From Eledone cirrhosa (taxonomy: Eukaryota): a stretch of DNA of 64,000 nt. Shown in pieces: positions 1 through 37,040 of this stretch (positions are counted from its first letter, which is position 1; every line of letters begins with the position of its first letter). The stretch covers positions 426,994,001 to 427,058,000 of the forward strand of contig OZ024740.1 of assembly GCA_964016885.1 (NCBI GenBank), read 5' to 3'. The position numbers and the translations under genes are program-made. A model generated the notes under the pieces. It saw only the letters and a program-made list of their open reading frames with translations, did not search any database and was not told where the DNA came from.

Positions 1-2513
1 AAGTTGGTAGCTAGTTGTTAGTAGGTCTTGTAATCATAGGTAAGTTGGTAGCTAGTTGTTAGTAGATCTTGTAATCATAGGAACGTTGGTAGCTAGTTGT
101 TAGTAGAGTTGTAATCATAGGTAAGTTGGTAGCTAGTTGTTAGTAGATCTTGTAATCATAGGAAAGTTGGTAGCTAGTTGTTAGTAGATCTTGTAATTAT
201 AGGTAAGTTGGTAGCTAGTTGTTAGTAGATCTTGTAATCATAGGTAAGTTGGTAGCTAGTTGTTAGTAGATCTTGTAATCATAGATAAGTTGGTAGCTAG
301 TTGTTAGGAGAGTTGTAATCATAGGTAAGTTGGTAGCTAGTTCTTAGTAGATCTTGTAATCATAGGTAAGTTGGTAGCTAGTTGTTAGTAGATCTTGTAA
401 TCATAGATAAGTTGGTAGCTAGTTGTTAGTAGAGTTGTAATCATAGGTAAGTTGGTAGCTAGTTGTTAGTAGATCTTGTAATCATAGGAAAGTTGGTAGC
501 TAGTTGTTAGTAGATCTTGTAATTATAGGTAAGTTGGTAGCTAGTTGTTAGTAGATCTTGTAATCATAGGTAAGTTGGTAGCTAGTTGTTAGTAGATCTT
601 GTAATCATAGATAAGTTGGTAGCTAGTTGTTAGGAGAGTTGTAATCATAGGTAAGTTGGTAGCTAGTTCTTAGTAGATCTTGTAATCATAGGTAAGTTGG
701 TAGCTAGTTGTTAGTAGATCTTGTAATCATAGATAAGTTGGTAGCTAGTTGTTAGTAGATCTTGTAATCATAGGAAAGTTGGTAGCTAGTTGTTAGTTGA
801 TCTTGTAATCATAGGAAAGTTGGTAGCTAGTTGTTAGTAGATCTTGTAATCATAGGAAAGTTGGTAGCTAGTTGTTAGTAGATCTTGTAATCATAGGTAA
901 GTTGGTAGCTAGTTGTTAGTAGATCTTGTAATCATAGATAAGTTGGTAGCTAGTTGTTAGTAGAGTTGTAATCATAGGTAAGTTGGTAGCTAGTTGTTAG
1001 TAGATAATGTAATCATAGGTAAGTTGGTAGCTAGTTGTTAGTAGATCTTGTAATCATAGGAAAGTTGGTAGCTTGTTGTTAGTAGATCTTGTAATCATAG
1101 ATAAGTTGGTAGCTAGTTGTTAGTAGATCTTGTAATCATAGTAAAGTTGGTAGCTAGTTGTTAGTAGAGTTGTAATCATAGGTAAGTTGGTAGCTAGTTG
1201 TTAGTAGATCTTGTAATCATAGGAAAGTTGGTAGCTAGTTGTTAGTAGAGTTGTAATCATAGGTAAGTTGGTAGCTAGTTGTTAGTAGATCTTGTAATCA
1301 TAGGTAAGTTGGTAGCTAGTTGTTAGTAGATCTTGTAATCATAGGAAAGTTGGTAGCTTGTTCTTAGTAGATCTTGTAATCATAGATAAGTTTGTAGCTA
1401 GTTGTTAGTAGATCTTGTAATCATAGTAAAGTTGGTAGCTAGTTGTTAGTAGAGTTGTAATCATAGGTAAGTTGGTAGCTAGTTGTTAGTAGATAATGTA
1501 ATCATAGGTAAGTTGGTAGCTAGTTGTTAGTAGATCTTGTAATCATAGGTAAGTTGGAAGCTAGTTGTTAGTAGATCTTGTAATCATAGGAAAGTTCGTA
1601 GCTTGTTGTTAGTAGATCTTGTAATCATAGGAAAGTTGGTAGCTTGTTCTTAGTAGATCTTGTAATCATAGGAAAGTTGGTAGCTAGTTGTTAGTAGATC
1701 TTGTAATCATAGGTAAGTTGGTAGCTAGTTGTTAGTAGGTCTTGTAATCATAGGTAAGTTGGTAGCTAGTTCTTAGTAGATCTTGTAATCATAGGTAAGT
1801 TGGTAGCTAGTTGTTAGTAGATCTTGTAATCATAGATAGTTGGTAGCTAGTTGTTAGTATATCTTGTAATCATAGGTAAGTTGGTAGCTAGTTGTTAGTA
1901 GATCTTGTAATCATAGATAAGTTGGTAGCTAGTTGTTAGTAGATCTTGTAATCATAGGAAAGTTGGTAGCTAGTTGTTAGTAGATCTTGTAATCATAGGT
2001 AAGTTGGTAGCTAGTTGTTAGTAGATCTTGTAATCATAGATAAGTTGGTAGCTAGTTGTTAGTAGATCTTGTAATCATAGGAAAGTTGGTAGCTAGTTGT
2101 TAGTAGATCTTGTAATCATAGGTAAGTTGGTAGCTAGTTGTTAGTAGATCTTGTAATCATAGATAAGTTGGTAGCTAGATGTTAGTAGATCTTGTAATCA
2201 TAGGAAAGTTGGTAGCTAGTTGTTAGTAGATCTTGTAATCATAGGAAAGTTGGTAGCTTGTTGTTAGTAGATCTTGTAATCATAGGTAAGTTGGTAGCTA
2301 GTTGTTAGTAGATCTTGTAATAATAGGTAAGTTGGTAGCTAGTTGTTAGTATATCTTGTAATCATAGGTAAGTTGGTAGCTAGTTGTTAGTAGATCTTGT
2401 AATCATAGGAAAGTCGGTAGCTAGTTGTTAGTAGATCTTGTAATAATAGGTAAGTTGGTAGCTAGTTGTTAGTAGATCTTGTAATCATAGATAAGTTGGT
2501 ACCTAGTTGTTAG
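1..2513. repeat. 41-bp tandem satellite (AAGTTGGTAGCTAGTTGTTAGTAGATCTTGTAATCATAGGT), about 61 copies, runs off the window start
   Basis: Unit repeats directly; 40-bp variants (AGAGTTG) are interspersed. Confidence 0.98.
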
Positions 2514-3149
2514 TGATGAGAGACTGTGAAGTGTCTGATTTTGAAAGGTTCAGACATACGCAGAGTTAGGTACTAACTCATCTCATTTTCATTGAAATAT
2601 ATGTTTGACACTCTAAAAGGTATGCTAAATGGACGTCAAAGAAAACGACGCCGGAACATGACTATAAAATACAGAGAGGGACTTTAGATATCACTTTTAA
2701 GTAGTAGAAACAGCGAATAAAGTCCTCGTTAGAGGCATTAGAGATAGTGACGAAGAATACTACGGATCATTCTACAAGAAGTGCGAACTTTTTGTTATAT
2801 GAAAATCCTTTGATAAATACTTTTTGTACATTTGTCAACAGAAGATTCTCTTCAGTAATATTATCCAAAAGAGGAATCAGCAAATTAAACTCGACACATT
2901 CTTCAAGCCAATTAGTTCCAACCTTACTACAAGTAAACCTGCTAACAGTAATGACTCTCCTGCCACAGAATCGGTCTCACATCAGACAACTTAGAATTCT
3001 ACAAATGGAAGACGAGTGGATCTTCATATCTCTATTAACTCAAAATGAGAATACATCCCCTCACCGTCTACTGGCAGGTCAACTACATGAAACGTACCTG
3101 TTATCTACCACATGTAACTTAAATACTGAGGTGTGTAGCACTGATTCAC

Positions 3150-16095: not shown

Positions 16096-16235
16096 CATGC
16101 ACACATATATATATATATGTATGTATGGATTCACCGAACATTTATTATAATGCTCGGTTTGTTTGTAAACAAACATCCCGTATCAAGCCGTACAGTGTCT
16201 AGCAACCATCGTTGCTCATTTGTTCAACACTGACA

Positions 16236-16290
16236 AAGGAACGCTGTACTCGTTTCAAGCTTATTGGCTATCGTCAGCACCGTATACCTT
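16236..16290 (-). ncRNA. Minimal hammerhead ribozyme (inverted-arm copy, slightly decayed)
   Basis: ACGGTG-CTGACGA-tagccaataagctt-GAAAC-GA-GTA-CAGCGT. Confidence 0.65.
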
Positions 16291-16396
16291 CTTGCCAGAT
16301 GTGTGCCCGGCCGATTAATTCACGCGATATGCAAATTAGGCTGATCAGCCGTTAATATATAAGGATATACTTTCAGACGTTCAATCATCTGGCAGG

Positions 16397-16451
16397 AAGG
16401 TATACGGTGCTGACGATAGCTAATAAGCTTGAAACTAGTACATCGTTCCTT
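16397..16451 (+). ncRNA. Minimal type I hammerhead ribozyme
   Basis: Stem I ACGGTG/CATCGT plus AAGG/CCTT; CTGACGA 16410-16416; stem II AGCT-aata-AGCT; GAAA; palindrome ACTAGT; GUA, predicted cut after 16440. Confidence 0.85.
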
Positions 16452-16694
16452 TGTCAGTGTTGAACAAATGGCGACGATGTTTGCTAAACACTATACGGCT
16501 TAATTCGGGATGTTTGTTTACAAACACACCGGGCATTATAATAAATGTTCGGTGAATCTATACGTACATGTATATATGTGTGCATGTATCTACTGTACGT
16601 CTGTATACATATATGTATGTACGTATACATACTTATATTTAAGTAACAGCCGTACTAAGAGTGAGAAATAAAATTTCGTTTCATTTTTTCCATT

Positions 16695-16771
<77 letters not shown>

Positions 16772-23069: not shown

Positions 23070-23140
23070 TGACGTACATGGGAGTCGAAACCACATCTTT
23101 GGTTATCCAGACCACTGTGCTACCATTACACCAACACATC
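23070..23140 (-). tRNA. tRNA-like sequence / pseudo-tRNA (anticodon loop CTGGATA)
   Basis: Acceptor GATGTGT/GTACGTC pairs with wobbles; D arm GTGT-AATGGTA-GCAC; TGGT/ACCA anticodon stem; GGTTTCGACTCC B box. Confidence 0.55.
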
Positions 23141-23370: not shown

Positions 23371-23441
23371 GATATGTTGGTGTAATGGTAGCACAGTGGT
23401 CTGGATAACCAAAGATGTGGATTCGACTCCCATGTACGTCA
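23371..23441 (+). tRNA. tRNA-like sequence / pseudo-tRNA followed by a T6 Pol III terminator
   Basis: Same cloverleaf as 23070-23140; TTTTTT at 23451-23456. Confidence 0.55.
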
Positions 23442-31929: not shown

Positions 31930-32230
31930 AATTTCAGGTTATCAATAATGTAGTGATAATATATCGTTACGTTAGAGATGAACAGCGTACGTGCAGGTTT
32001 GCTCAACGAGTATAAATTATATTCCGGAGAAATGTAGAAAGGATGAATATAAAATGAAAGTGCTTTTGTTAAAAAAGGAATCTATTAGGTATTGACATAT
32101 GTTTCTGTAACAGACCGAATACCTATGTATCGCTGCTTGCGTAATCATATAATGTTAGCAAGTATTCGATAGCAAATGTATAATCAGTTGTCACTTCTTC
32201 AGAGATTTTGGATAAAGCATCCTTTCTATA
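31930..32230 (-). mobile_element. HHR-bearing element with a very short inverted 5' arm, in (TA)n
   Basis: CATCCTTTCTA at ~32218 is inverted to TAGAAAGGATG at ~32035. Confidence 0.6.
32090..32207 (-). ncRNA. Hammerhead core with long stem II; stem I poor
   Basis: CTGAAGA-aGTGACA...TGTTACa-GAAAC-ATAT-GTC; palindrome ACATATGT. Confidence 0.55.
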
Positions 32231-32465
32231 TATATATATATATATAATTAAGTTAAAAATGTACATCCACATATGTATACTGAAATACTAGTATGCATAT
32301 GAATACACACACGTGTACATATGTAGATGTACCGAGTTTTCACTGGTCACTTTACTGTGAGTGTCCAGCTATTCTGTATGTAAACACACAGACAAACCGG
32401 TTCTTAGAGTCATACTGGTTTTTGAGGAAACACCTTTCCTCTATTCTCCAGAAAGCCAGACAAGG

Positions 32466-32510
32466 AATATTGGACTAGTTTCGATGTTGTTACATCTCAT
32501 CAGCAATATT
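32466..32510 (-). ncRNA. Canonical minimal type I hammerhead ribozyme (copy 2)
   Basis: AATATTG-CTGATGA-GATGT aaca ACATC-GAAAC-TA-GTC-CAATATT: 7-bp stem I, 5-bp stem II, palindrome ACTAGT, GUC. Confidence 0.92.
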
Positions 32511-32930
32511 TACCTATCTTCCGGCTTCTCTAGAGAATCGTGAAAGCACATATCGTTATATGCTTTTTCTATGAAAATTAGTAGTGGGCAGACCAATTTG
32601 CATAGAGCGTGAGTACGTACCGGTTCAACGGAGACGATAAAAACAAATAACGAAACGAAATTAAATTTCGTTTCGTTTGTAACTCACTTTTGTATGACTG
32701 ACGCTTAAACAATTAAGTTAAAAATGTACATCCACATATGTATACTGAAATACTAGTATGCATATGAATACACACACGTGTACATATGTAGATGTACCGA
32801 GTTTTCACTGGTCACTTTACTGTGAGTGTCCAGCTATTCTGTATGTAAACACACAGACAAACCGGTTCTTAGAGTCATACTGGTTTTTGAGGAAACACCT
32901 TTCCTCTATTCTCCAGAAAGCCAGACAAGG

Positions 32931-32975
32931 AATATTGGACTAGTTTCGATGTTGTTACATCTCATCAGCAATATT
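32931..32975 (-). ncRNA. Canonical minimal type I hammerhead ribozyme (copy 1)
   Basis: Identical to 32466-32510, offset 465 bp. Confidence 0.92.
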
Positions 32976-33207
32976 TACCTATCTTCCGGTTTGTCTGTGT
33001 GTTTACATACAGAATAGCTGGACACTCACAGTAAAGTGACCAGTGAAAACTCGGTACATCTACATATGTACACGTGTGTGTATTCATATGCATACTAGTA
33101 TTTCAGTATACATATGTGGATGTACATTTTTAACTTAATTGTTTAAGCGTCAGTCATACAAAAGTGAGTTACAAACGAAACGAAATTTAATTTCGTTTCG
33201 TTATTTG

Positions 33208-33254
<47 letters not shown>

Positions 33255-33258
<4 letters not shown>

Positions 33259-33998
33259 TAAAATAACAGATTAAAGTTTAAGCAAAGAATCGCTGCTTTG
33301 ACCCTTAACGGGATCTTCTGAAACTAACAAAGTCAATCTGTAAACGCAGAAGTGGATATTTTAAAAAACGTTGCAACCGGAGGAAGACAGGAAGACGATA
33401 CTTTGGTTCGTGGAAACGTTCGCTGGCAAAGAACGGGAAAAAACGAATAAGATACGTCATTAATAGGAGCGGTGAAAAACAATTACGCGCAAAGACAGAA
33501 CCACGTTTATGGTATAAAAGAGGTCGTAGACTAATGTTCTCTTAGGTGGTTCATAGAGACGTTCTCTGGCAATGAACGAAAAAAACGAAGATAATACGTC
33601 ATATGTGGAGCGTGGAGAACAATAGCACGCAAAGACAAAACCACGTAAATGGTATAGCAGAAGTCGTAGACAAAAATCTAACTAGGAGACCGAATGAATC
33701 TCCGCTACAGAGTTAAAAACAAAGTAAATAAATACAATACAGAAGTAATAGAAATAAATAAATACATACACGCAAACAAATACGTACATACACAAGCATA
33801 CGCAAAACACTTACCATAGGTATACAAAACCACGCACATATAAATATGTGTGTGTGTGTATGCGTGCATACAAATAAATAAATAAATAATTATATAAACG
33901 TAGATAAATAAATAAATACGTATATAACAAGCGCACAAACATACCTACATACCTTATCGAGCCCTCTTTGGATTTTAGTCTTGAAATTTATTATTATT
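33255..33998 (-). mobile_element. Inverted pLTR copy of the 35505-37040 PLE family plus a direct tail tip
   Basis: 33255-33950 is the reverse complement of ~36260-36952; 33952-33998 matches 36991-37037 directly. Confidence 0.85.
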
Positions 33999-34548: not shown

Positions 34549-34631
<83 letters not shown>

Positions 34632-34670
34632 GATATTAACAAATGGAAACTATATTTATAAAACCATATT

Positions 34671-34735
34671 TATTTCATTATACATATTTCAAGGATACCA
34701 AGTTAAATTATGGTATGCCTTCATCAGACAAAATA
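34671..34735 (-). ncRNA. Minimal hammerhead ribozyme
   Basis: TATTTTGT-CTGATGA-aggcATACCA...TGGTATccttGAAA-TATGTA-TA-ATGAAATA. Confidence 0.7.
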
Positions 34736-35051
34736 CAATATATACCAGTTTTTTAAATAAACATTGACGTACCCTTTCAAAATGCGACCGTTACTTTTGG
34801 AAGACATCAGGATAGTGGTTTGTTTATTTTAGTAAGTCGTTGTGTTAAGGATAAGTAAAAAGACTGAGAGAGAGAGAGAAACGTGGAGAAAAGAAAGGGA
34901 GAGATAAATAAAGAAAAAGAAGAAAGAAAAAAAACTCAAGAGAGAGAAATATAGAGATAGAGAGAGGGGAGAGAACGAAAACCTTAAGTCATGTCATATT
35001 AAGTTGAGTTAACAATTGAGATGAAATGAATAACAATTTAAATAGAACTTT

Positions 35052-35092
<41 letters not shown>

Positions 35093-35377
35093 TCCTTTTT
35101 TCTTTCTTTTTATTTCCTCCCATCTATTTACCTCTTTCTTTTCTACATGCATTTCTCTCTCTCTCCGATATTTCTCCAGGTTTTTTTTCTCTCTCTCCTT
35201 CTTTCTCTCTACTTCTCTCTCTCCGTCTTTTCTTTCTTTCTCTCCGTCTTTTTCTAATTGTGCTTAAAACTATAACTAATAAAATAATAAACATCTCACT
35301 ATCCAGACAGCTTCCAAAAATAATGGTTGCATCTAATAGGGTACGTCAAAATTATTTATAAAACTGTTTATATATTG

Positions 35378-35442
35378 TATTTTGTCTGATGAAGGCATAC
35401 CATATTTTAATTTGGTATTCCTGAAATATGTATAATGAAATA
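35378..35442 (+). ncRNA. Minimal hammerhead ribozyme
   Basis: Stem I TATTTTGT/ATGAAATA; CTGATGA 35386-35392; stem II AGGcATACCA/TGGTATtCCT; GAAA 35423-35426; AUA. Confidence 0.78.
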
Positions 35443-35504
35443 AATATGGTTTTATAAATATAGTTTCCATTTATTAATATCGTATATATATATATATATA
35501 TATA

Positions 35505-37040
35505 TATTTATTAAAATAACAGATTAAAGTTTAAACAAAGAATCGCTGCTTTCACCTAGAGACGACTCTATTTGGATTAAAAAATCCAATAGTACCCCAT
35601 TCGATGTGTGTATGGGCGCCAGTGATTCTACGGAGGTTACTGATCTTATCGGCCTTTACCTTCTTTTCTCTATCAAGGACGAATTCCCCAACGCGGGCGG
35701 TGGTTTGTACCGTGACGATGGTCTTTTGACCATGACTAAGTGCGGACCTCGTGCTTGCGACAGGTTCAGAAAAGAACTCACAGCCTTCTTTAAAGGCTTC
35801 AACCTCTATACAGGTATACCTCTCGGTCGTTAATTACCTCGACGTTACCCTCAACTTATTGAATGGGTTGTATTACCCGTATAGAAAGCCGAATGATACG
35901 CTTAATTACATAAGTAAGCATTCCAACCATCCTGCCAGCATAACCAAGAACCTGGTAAGAAACGTTTCGTTGAGGCTTTCCCGTATTTCCACCAACGAGC
36001 GTATTTTGAACGACCATTCCACTTATTACAGGTATATATTATCCGTATGTTTTGTGAAGGTACGTATACTTTCTCGTACGTATATTTGATTGTTATGGCG
36101 TATCATTTTTTTTATATATTCTGGTACATATGGTTCGGCTATGTGTATGCGGGAGTTTTGCGTCTGTATGAGTATGCAGGTTCGTACGTATGTAAGGCGT
36201 GTGTATATGTGTACTTCATGTTTTGGTTGACTTACGTCTCCGAACATTTGGGTATTTACATGTAGGTATGTGTGTGCGCTTGTTATATACGTATTTATTT
36301 ATTTATATGTTTATATAATTATTTATTTATTTGTATACACGCTTACACACACACACACATATTTATATGTGCGTGGTTTTGTTTCCTATGGTAAGTTTTT
36401 GCGTATGCTTGTGTATGTACGTATTTGTTTGCGTGTATGTATTTATTTATTTCTATTACTTCTGTATTGTATTTATTTACTTTGTTCTTAACTCCGTAGC
36501 GGAGATTCTTTCGGTCTCCTAGTTAGAATTTAGTCTACGACTTCTGCTATACCATTTACGTGGTTTTGTCTTTGCGTACTATTGTTCTCCACGCCCCACA
36601 TATGACGTATTATCTTCGTTTTTTTCGTTCATTGCCAGAGAACGTCTCTATGCACCACCTAAGAGAACATTAGTCTACGACCTCTTTTATACCATAAACG
36701 TGGTTCTGTCTTTGCGCGTAATTGTTTTTCACCGTTCCTATTAATGACGTATCATATTCGTTTTTTCCCGTTCTTAGCCAGCGAACGTTTCCACGAACCA
36801 AAGTATCGTCTTCCTGTCTTCCTCCGGTTGCAACGTTTTTTGAAATATCCAGTTCTGCGTTTACAGATTGACTTTGGTAGTTTCAGAAGATCCCGTTAAG
36901 GGTGAAAGCAGAGATTCTTTGCTTAAACTTTAATCTGTTAATTTAATAAATATTTGCTCTACGGTTCTTATATATTTGATATATATTTATCCTTATCGAG
37001 CCCTCTTTGGATTTTAGTCTTCAAATTTATTATTATTACT
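35505..37040 (+). mobile_element. Naiad-type PLE, 5'-truncated with a 50-bp inverted pLTR tip and an internal deletion
   Basis: 35505-35556 is inverted to 36901-36952; RT fragment joins directly to the 3' non-coding region at ~36030; (TA)n on both sides. Confidence 0.85.
35557..36030 (+). pseudogene. Naiad-type RT fragment (one frameshift)
   Basis: W.KK..PFDVCMGASDSTEVTDLIGL..GGLYRDDGL / VNYLDVTLNL..PYRKPND..YISKHSNHPASI..RLSRIS. Confidence 0.9.

What the first reader, a model, noticed from the sequence alone, without database searches (positions are those of the whole stretch)
32246..33213. Intact retrozyme-like element: two identical minimal hammerheads 465 nt apart
Seen: the minus strand reads (TA)n - inverted arm - HHR - 465 nt - identical HHR - (TA)n. 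Each HHR has a perfect 7-bp stem I, 5-bp stem II, canonical core, GUC triplet and palindromic ACTAGT in place of stem III. No credible ORF is present, and the repeated segments look identical. Established: minimal HHRs with a palindromic loop III cleave as dimers, and animal non-LTR retrozymes give circular RNA monomers. Inference: a recent, probably active element releasing a 465-nt circularisable RNA mobilised in trans by a PLE RT. I do not know of this being described for cephalopods.
Basis: partly seen in the sequence, partly recalled or inferred. Interest (0 to 1): 0.9.

Follow-up and report, generated by a model that had tools for sequence, protein, structure and literature searches.

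The report
Twin-primed Penelope-type hammerhead retrozyme insertion
This is one very young copy of a 465-base non-coding repeat with a self-cutting-RNA motif that sits in thousands of places in this animal genome as two back-to-back arms ending at two fixed sites, which a Penelope-type jumping-gene enzyme likely wrote from both sides of a DNA break, probably by running round an RNA circle.

Summary
Observation confirmed: two identical type I hammerheads 465 nt apart, between (TA)n tracts. The 'inverted arm' is not a terminal repeat but a second, opposite-facing copy. The family has at least 9,294 hammerhead cores and about 2,000 insertions. In 136 insertions examined, arms point away from each other; 84 of 90 two-armed insertions end at site S1 on one side and S2 (about 70 nt further) on the other, none at the same site twice. 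A young coding Neptune element shows the same rule (7 of 7). Both arms share private variants, inner joints fall anywhere on the unit, and locus-fixed changes are A>G-skewed (26 vs 7 T>C), unlike later DNA mutations (45 vs 59): one RNA was copied from both sides of a break, most often likely a circle. Against circle-only: 5 of 67 loci needed a two-unit linear template, long arms grow by DNA duplication, and the A>G skew fades in the strictest subset. Cleavage, circles and the partner enzyme are not shown; this copy itself is probably not self-sufficient. The scan noted the same layout earlier on other DNA of this genome.

The parts
32226..32245 (.). (TA)n target remnant, left side
   Evidence: sequence
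32246..32472 (-). terminal partial unit m1-m227 of the minus arm; ends at site S1 (short end, inferred RT start site 1)
   Evidence: same end in 84 of 90 two-armed insertions
32466..32510 (-). hammerhead 2 (type I; predicted cut between 32473 and 32472)
32473..32937 (-). complete 465-nt unit, cut site to cut site (m1-m465); predicted fold brings both ends together through an extended stem I
32560..32603 (-). candidate internal promoter or hairpin: octamer ATGCAAAT at 32603-32596, an inverted octamer-like partner and an ATATA box, kept in a 64%-identical sister family
   Evidence: function inferred
32637..32711 (-). the 'tail' between S1 (m227, 32711) and S2 (m301, 32637); includes the 13-bp hairpin 32649-32677; most conserved stretch after the ribozyme core
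32727..32797 (-). long hairpin m141-m211 just upstream of S1
32931..32975 (-). hammerhead 1 (identical; predicted cut between 32938 and 32937)
32938..32989 (-). 5'-truncated start of the minus arm, m414-m465
32986..32989 (.). head-to-head joint of the two arms, 4-nt overlap
32986..33214 (+). second arm, m73-m301, facing away; ends at site S2 (long end with tail, inferred RT start site 2)
33212..33258 (.). (TA)n target remnant, right side

Best explanation
This is a young insertion of a non-coding hammerhead repeat whose two opposed arms end at two fixed sites, likely written by a Penelope-type reverse transcriptase that primed both ends of a cut in (TA)n on one RNA, most often probably a 465-nt circle. 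Steps: (1, inferred) multi-unit arrays are transcribed, probably from an internal octamer-type promoter; (2, predicted) neighbouring hammerheads pair through the palindromic ACUAGU, cut after GUC/GUU and release 465-nt units whose ends are held together by the extended stem I and are ligated; (3, inferred) some RNAs are A-to-I edited; (4, shown as footprint, enzyme inferred) a Penelope-like RT/GIY-YIG protein acting in trans cuts both strands of (TA)n and starts one cDNA at S1 and the other at S2 of the same RNA; (5, inferred) both run on through the ribozyme junction for a random distance, round the circle or along an uncut precursor; (6, shown) the two cDNA ends are joined head to head through 0-5 nt of overlap; (7, shown) long arms later also grow by block duplication in DNA. 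The window copy is such a product with arms of 744 and 229 nt.
For: Layout: 84 of 90 two-armed insertions with both ends in view have one S1 and one S2 end, 0 S1/S1, 0 S2/S2, 6 have a damaged end. 7 of 7 two-armed copies among 13 fetched of a coding Neptune element follow the same rule with a 41-45-nt tail. A Penelope-like protein cuts and extends both strands and starts at two internal RNA sites that bound the tail (PMC11167929). One template: same-arm and cross-arm divergence match, 0.00% in L045 and L088 while the family spans about 11%. RNA passage: changes on terminal branches, carried by two or more copies in a locus, are A>G 26 vs T>C 7 of 70 (p = 0.0007); single-unit changes are 45 vs 59 of 436; 21 of 26 A>G sites are paired in the predicted fold. 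Monomer template: A>G fixed in all 21, 19, 23 and 14 copies of both arms in L059, L088, L104, L192; inner arm ends uniform on the unit (116 ends, KS p = 0.83, 3 near the cut); 517 crossings of the cut site show no added bases; length does not rise with age (rho -0.19, n = 75). Selection on the ribozyme: core least changed region, an A-U to U-A swap in stem II in 9 of 22 sequences, stem I re-paired in the sister family.
Against: In 5 of 67 testable loci the outermost units of both arms share an allele that inner units lack (L037, L046, L203, L212, L226), which a single circle cannot give. The longest arms show 3- to 6-unit block duplications (L039, L048, L061, L074, L104), so length alone proves nothing. 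The A>G skew is marginal or absent in stricter subsets: 15 vs 6 of 38 (p = 0.05) for three or more copies over both arms, 6 vs 4 of 19 (p = 0.54) for two or more copies in each arm, 31 vs 21 (p = 0.17) on internal branches; private variants may also be inherited from unsampled donors. No coding partner shares sequence with the unit: two young Neptune families (30 and 20 loci) and 30 GIY-YIG loci gave none, and the two families show no hammerhead in their 3' UTR. 229 of 517 junctions carry GUU, recalled as a weak triplet. In the anole element the hammerhead was not needed for insertion and uncut RNA was the main substrate; 8 of 9 Xenopus dimers did not cleave.
Confidence: 0.6

Rival explanations
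1. Same twin priming at S1 and S2, but the template is normally an uncut linear multi-unit transcript; long uniform arms come from long young donors and from DNA-level duplication, and the ribozyme only trims RNA or is a passenger.
For: Mirror alleles in the outer units of 5 of 67 loci; block duplications in long arms; a giant array of at least 68 units with 2-3% internal divergence; uncut RNA is the substrate in vitro for the anole element; strictest A>G subset not significant.
Against: Editing of a linear multimer should leave unit-specific A>G; single-unit changes show none (45 vs 59) and none of the mirror alleles is A>G. Five of the 12 youngest loci have two or more units in both arms. 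The ribozyme core is the most conserved part of the unit.
Confidence: 0.28
2. The template is the cut linear monomer and the RT jumps from its 5' end to the 3' end of the same or another monomer at each pass.
Against: No pile-up of arm ends at the cut (3 of 116, about 2 expected); no added bases in 517 crossings (which would miss large indels); arms are not mosaics of subfamilies.
Confidence: 0.06
3. The inverted arm arises by fold-back self-priming on an antisense template, as proposed for rotifer Penelope copies, not by priming from both sides of the break.
For: Proposed in PMC3846280 from palindromes at inverted joints; a few joints here are near-palindromic (L095, L089, L036).
Against: The two inner ends are mostly unrelated positions and either arm can be the longer; fold-back does not by itself give one S1 and one S2 end; the A>G skew lies on the hammerhead-sense strand.
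Confidence: 0.04
4. Debris of ordinary pLTRs from a coding Penelope-like element, or a DNA satellite/MITE with no RNA stage.
For: Penelope-like ends; terminal hairpins.
Against: No copy runs into an ORF; perfect head-to-tail units of one length; strand-skewed A>G; variable inner joints and multi-unit arms do not fit a MITE.
Confidence: 0.02

Closest known systems
Metazoan non-LTR retrozymes (Cervera and de la Pena 2020, PMC7229834: passages and Discussion read; Li, Clavereau and Pollet 2026, 10.64898/2026.07.22.740005: parts 1-3 of 5 read)
   Same: ORF-less tandem units of a few hundred bases with one type I hammerhead each, low GC (37%), dimers to long multimers, thousands of copies; Penelope-like RT and a circular template proposed there.
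   Different: The parts read describe head-to-tail arrays only ('inverted' has 0 occurrences in PMC7229834); they do not report opposed arms, two fixed end sites used one per side, or editing scars. Their families were linked to pLTRs by sequence (Xenopus); here no such partner was found. Circles and cleavage were shown there, not here.
Endonuclease-bearing Penelope-like elements, Neptune clade (Craig et al. 2021, PMC8557442: passages; Arkhipova et al. 2013, PMC3846280: passages; Frangieh et al. 2024, PMC11167929: parts 1-2 of 4)
   Same: Partial tandems, an inverted 5'-truncated copy, a tail at one end only, (TA)n targets, two internal RT start sites bounding the tail.
   Different: No ORF; tail about 70 nt instead of 30-40; both arms can hold ten or more units; the one-site-per-side rule is counted here (84 to 0), whereas in vitro no strand difference in start site was seen.
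LINE-1 twin priming
   Same: Both ends of the target break prime cDNA on one RNA, giving an inverted arm joined by short overlap.
   Different: In LINE-1 the second primer anneals at a variable internal site and the arms copy different parts of the RNA; here both start sites are fixed, 70 nt apart, and both arms copy the same sequence repeatedly.
Newt satellite 2 (snRNA-type promoter; seen only as a passage and reference in PMC2220036; the paper itself not held)
   Same: Hammerhead satellite with weak helix III and an internal promoter; here a conserved octamer lies about 100 nt upstream of the ribozyme.
   Different: Promoter function here is untested and the motif also forms an RNA hairpin.

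Membership tests
Metazoan non-LTR retrozyme | type I hammerhead in each unit of a head-to-tail repeat of a few hundred bases | tested here: met
   period 463-470 nt (150-450 in PMC7229834, 51-972 in the 2026 preprint)
Metazoan non-LTR retrozyme | no ORF, no true LTR pair, GC below 50% | tested here: met
   longest ATG frame 61 codons; 171 of 465 bases G or C; PBS/PPT not searched
Metazoan non-LTR retrozyme | target-site duplication longer than 4 bp where visible | tested here: inconclusive
   hidden in (TA)n; one copy outside (TA)n, L053, has a 12-nt direct repeat on both sides
Metazoan non-LTR retrozyme | self-cleavage of the transcript | not testable with these tools
   only conservation and compensatory pairs
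Metazoan non-LTR retrozyme | accumulates as a unit-length circular RNA | tested here: inconclusive
   no run on record as RNA was listed; genomic footprints favour a monomer template but 5 of 67 loci needed a linear one
Penelope-like element (EN+) | ORF with RT and GIY-YIG endonuclease | tested here: not met
   no ORF in unit or between arms: it is non-autonomous
Penelope-like element (EN+) | tandem plus inverted 5'-truncated copy, tail at one end only | tested here: met
   84 of 90, none with the same end twice
Penelope-like element (EN+) | insertion bias to simple repeats, (TA)n | tested here: met
   flanks (hammerhead-selected loci); 2,088 S2-(TA)n joints
Penelope-like element (EN+) | sequence shared with the pLTR of a coding element in the same genome | tested here: inconclusive
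   none in 30 + 13 loci of one Neptune family, 20 of a second, 30 GIY-YIG loci; most of over 10,000 GIY-YIG candidates unseen
Minimal PLE hammerhead (min-HHR, PMC4209133) | no helix III, long helix II (7-8 bp), short helix I (4-5 bp) | tested here: not met
   helix I 7 bp, helix II 5 bp, 2-bp helix III with palindromic loop; the dimer-dependent canonical metazoan form fits instead

The most novel reading that the evidence does not exclude
A dimeric Penelope-type RT loads on one edited 465-nt RNA circle at two hairpin-marked sites and copies it by two rolling circles at once, one from each end of the cut target, so every insertion is a fossil of double rolling-circle reverse transcription; the same one-site-per-strand rule would explain the long-puzzling inverted, one-tailed shape of all Penelope insertions.
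Probability: 0.5. Interest if true: 0.8.

Novelty: new variant of a known kind. Interest (0 to 1): 0.6.

Why it matters
That retrozymes spread by a Penelope-like RT copying a circular RNA was proposed in 2014 and 2020 and is still untested; how Penelope elements get their inverted, one-tailed shape is also open. This family supplies a short defined substrate with two mapped start sites, a counted rule (one site per side, 84 to 0, shared with a coding Neptune element) and editing marks that trace the template. An RT that primes both ends of a break at fixed internal RNA sites and copies circles would also be of use as a gene-writing enzyme. Eight literature searches found no paper describing two-armed retrozyme insertions or retrozymes in cephalopods; most subscription journals and the papers' supplements were not seen.

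Tried and rejected
Rfam gathering search: no hammerhead family reached threshold; not evidence against, the motif is short. Sequencing runs: no RNA holder listed. Two runs of unrecorded kind from two other studies each hold the unit as a single closed-cycle contig of 495 and 496 nt (unit plus 30) and no contig on the abundant Neptune ORF; a tandem DNA array gives the same cycle and the blank may be false, so this is not counted. Partner search: the Neptune ORF beside L065 is a neighbour in a shared (TA)n tract, not attached; two Neptune families and 30 GIY-YIG loci share no sequence with the unit. Apparent arm ends exactly at the cut site in the BLAST map were alignment-phase artefacts. Bacterial promoter scan: at chance level and not relevant. 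Long arms as proof of rolling-circle copying: rejected, since block duplications exist. The S1 count (568 forward, 1,414 reverse) multiply counts reverse hits; only the forward figure is usable. The newt promoter paper was not held. Look-up of earlier notes by sequence returned nothing.

Full report
Observation. The minus strand holds two identical type I hammerheads at 32931-32975 and 32466-32510, 465 nt apart. I number the unit from predicted cut to cut, m1-m465 (window 32937 to 32473). The element is a minus arm m414-m465, m1-m465, m1-m227 (744 nt) and a plus arm m73-m301 (229 nt); they meet head to head through a 4-nt overlap and both outer ends run into (TA)n. The repeated parts have 0 differences in 218 same-arm and 350 cross-arm columns, and the copy is identical to the majority sequence of another locus, L064, so it is very young. 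The unit has no ATG frame over 61 codons and folds far better than shuffles (z = -9.2), with its two ends paired through a long extension of stem I.

The family. The exact core occurs 1,633 times, a version allowing four subfamily positions 9,294 times, reversed controls 0. The long end joined to (TA)n occurs 2,088 times. I fetched loci from the hammerhead searches and from the two end searches, mostly the first 165 Mb of contig C1, and mapped 136 insertions after dropping seven loci (three overlaps, two empty, one segmental duplicate, one inverted segmental duplicate). This is a small and partly end-selected sample. No insertion has a coding region between its arms or runs on into one; nearby RT ORFs belong to other elements sharing the (TA)n tracts.

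The rule of ends. Of 136 insertions, 44 show one arm of 40 nt or more (several have a tiny opposite arm), 1 is cut by the edge, 1 is nested, and 90 are two-armed with both ends in view. Of these 84 have one end at S1 (m220-233) and one at S2 (m296-303), 42 in each order; none has the same site twice; 6 have a damaged end. Penelope-like elements are known for an inverted truncated copy and a tail at one end only (PMC8557442, passages; PMC3846280, passages), and a purified one cuts and extends both target strands, starting at two internal RNA sites that bound the tail (PMC11167929, parts 1-2 of 4). A young coding Neptune family in this genome (RT, CxxC linker, GIY-YIG) obeys the same rule in 7 of 7 two-armed copies among 13 fetched. 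Each site here follows a hairpin, and m212-m301 is the least changed stretch after the ribozyme core. I infer that both 3' ends of the cut target prime, one at each site.

One RNA for both arms. Same-arm and cross-arm divergence track each other locus by locus, and are 0.00% in L045 and L088 although subfamilies differ from the window unit by up to about 11%. Inner arm ends are uniform over the unit (116 ends, KS p = 0.83; 3 within 3 nt of the cut), joined by 1-5 nt overlap in 30 of 58 joints and bluntly in 9. Of 517 crossings of the cut site none shows added bases and at most 3 lose one base nearby; the method would miss large indels. So copying does not pause at the cut: the template is a sealed circle or an uncut precursor.

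Circle or linear. On a tree of 85 loci, changes on terminal branches carried by two or more copies are A>G 26, T>C 7 of 70 on the hammerhead strand (p = 0.0007); single-unit changes, taken as later DNA mutation, are 45 and 59 of 436. Private variants fixed in both arms are A>G in 10 of 26 (against 45 of 436, Fisher p = 0.0003; against T>C alone 10 to 4, p = 0.18), including all 21, 19, 23 and 14 copies in L059, L088, L104 and L192. An edit made once and present in every unit is what a circle predicts; a linear multimer predicts unit-specific A>G, which is not seen. Array length does not rise with age (rho -0.19, p = 0.10, n = 75; end-selected only rho -0.14, n = 50). Against this: the skew is 15 to 6 (p = 0.05) with three or more copies over both arms and 6 to 4 (p = 0.54, n = 19) with two or more in each arm; internal branches give 31 to 21 (p = 0.17); 5 of 67 testable loci have outer units that share an allele absent from inner units, which needs a template with two different units or conversion between arms; and the longest arms show 3- to 6-unit block duplications. 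The simplest reading is mixed: the enzyme recognises S1 and S2 on whatever RNA carries them, mostly circles, sometimes uncut precursors. I put this at 0.6.

The ribozyme. Cleavage was not testable. The core has 4 changes in 31 positions on the tree, the fewest of ten regions; stem II carries a double swap in 9 of 22 aligned copies, probably one event; a sister family 64% identical keeps stem I with A-U to G-C and U-A to C-G changes and the same palindromic loop. Weak helix III with a palindromic loop is the form that works as a dimer (PMC4209133, passages). Nearly half of the junctions carry GUU (229 of 517), which I recall as slow; incomplete cutting would fit the linear templates seen.

Is this copy active? 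Both families keep an octamer, an inverted partner and an ATATA box about 60-100 nt upstream of the ribozyme (63 of 69 informative loci intact). A newt hammerhead satellite has an snRNA-type promoter (passage in PMC2220036; the octamer link is recalled). The motif also forms an RNA hairpin, so its role is open. If it is the promoter, this copy has it only between its two hammerheads and could release a unit only by read-through, which would first transcribe a perfect 229-nt antisense arm. It is better seen as a fresh product than as a source.

Partner. Not found. Two young Neptune families and 30 GIY-YIG loci share no sequence with the unit; over 10,000 GIY-YIG candidates exist.

Comparison and verdict. 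It works like, and meets the sequence-level features of, a metazoan non-LTR retrozyme (PMC7229834, passages and Discussion; preprint 10.64898/2026.07.22.740005, parts 1-3 of 5); cleavage and circles remain untested. It is not a coding Penelope element but carries its insertion footprint. The circle-copying route is proposed in those papers, not shown. Searches found no account of two-armed retrozyme insertions, of the one-site-per-side rule or of retrozymes in cephalopods; supplements (species tables, the model figure of PMC7229834, the closed preprint supplements) were not seen and could bear on this. The scan has noted the same layout for 310-, 422- and 467/468-nt units elsewhere in this genome; the last may be this family. 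New variant of a known kind; interest 0.6.

Noticed in passing
window 34630-35483: A second, unrelated hammerhead element (cores at 34727 minus and 35386 plus) with the same back-to-back layout between (TA)n tracts; relatives in L113, L120, L160, L167, L178.
   Followed up: partly
window about 16230-16750; L217, L211, L098, L083, L076, L168: Sister family, unit 480-490 nt, 64% identical over 331 columns, same ACUAGU loop, re-paired stem I, same octamer and hairpin order; two-armed in L217 and L098.
   Followed up: partly
window 35528-36089 (+), 33251-33950 vs 36260-36953: Broken RT fragment that looks like a Naiad-type Penelope element (motifs recalled; Pfam gave no hit) with a 700-nt inverted duplicate; the finding sits in the (TA)n at the end of that duplicate.
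   Followed up: partly
window 23070-23140 (-) and 23371-23441 (+): Two tRNA-like sequences back to back inside an inverted repeat, perhaps a tRNA-derived element with the same two-armed insertion.
   Followed up: no
G000:C1:95640000-95672000 (L157, L067, L159, L068, L158): One arm of this family has grown into a satellite of at least 68 units, ends not reached, 2-3% internal divergence.
   Followed up: partly
L149:4248-6908 and L111-L152; L161-L180: Two very young coding Neptune families (96-99% protein identity among the best-scored copies, intact ORFs) without a recognisable hammerhead in the 3' UTR; the second carries long (TA/TG)n tracts inside its 3' UTR.
   Followed up: partly
L079:2-3500, L043:558-2190: A coding Penelope-like family with an asparagine-rich N-terminal stretch and a hammerhead core in its 3' UTR, ending in (TA)n.
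   Followed up: no
L053:4846-5284: The one copy seen outside (TA)n: single arm, S2 end, 12-nt direct repeat on both sides, suggesting a staggered cut.
   Followed up: yes
L236: One subfamily's two-armed insertion nested with another's.
   Followed up: no
window 1-2514: 41-nt minisatellite, at least 61 copies.
   Followed up: no
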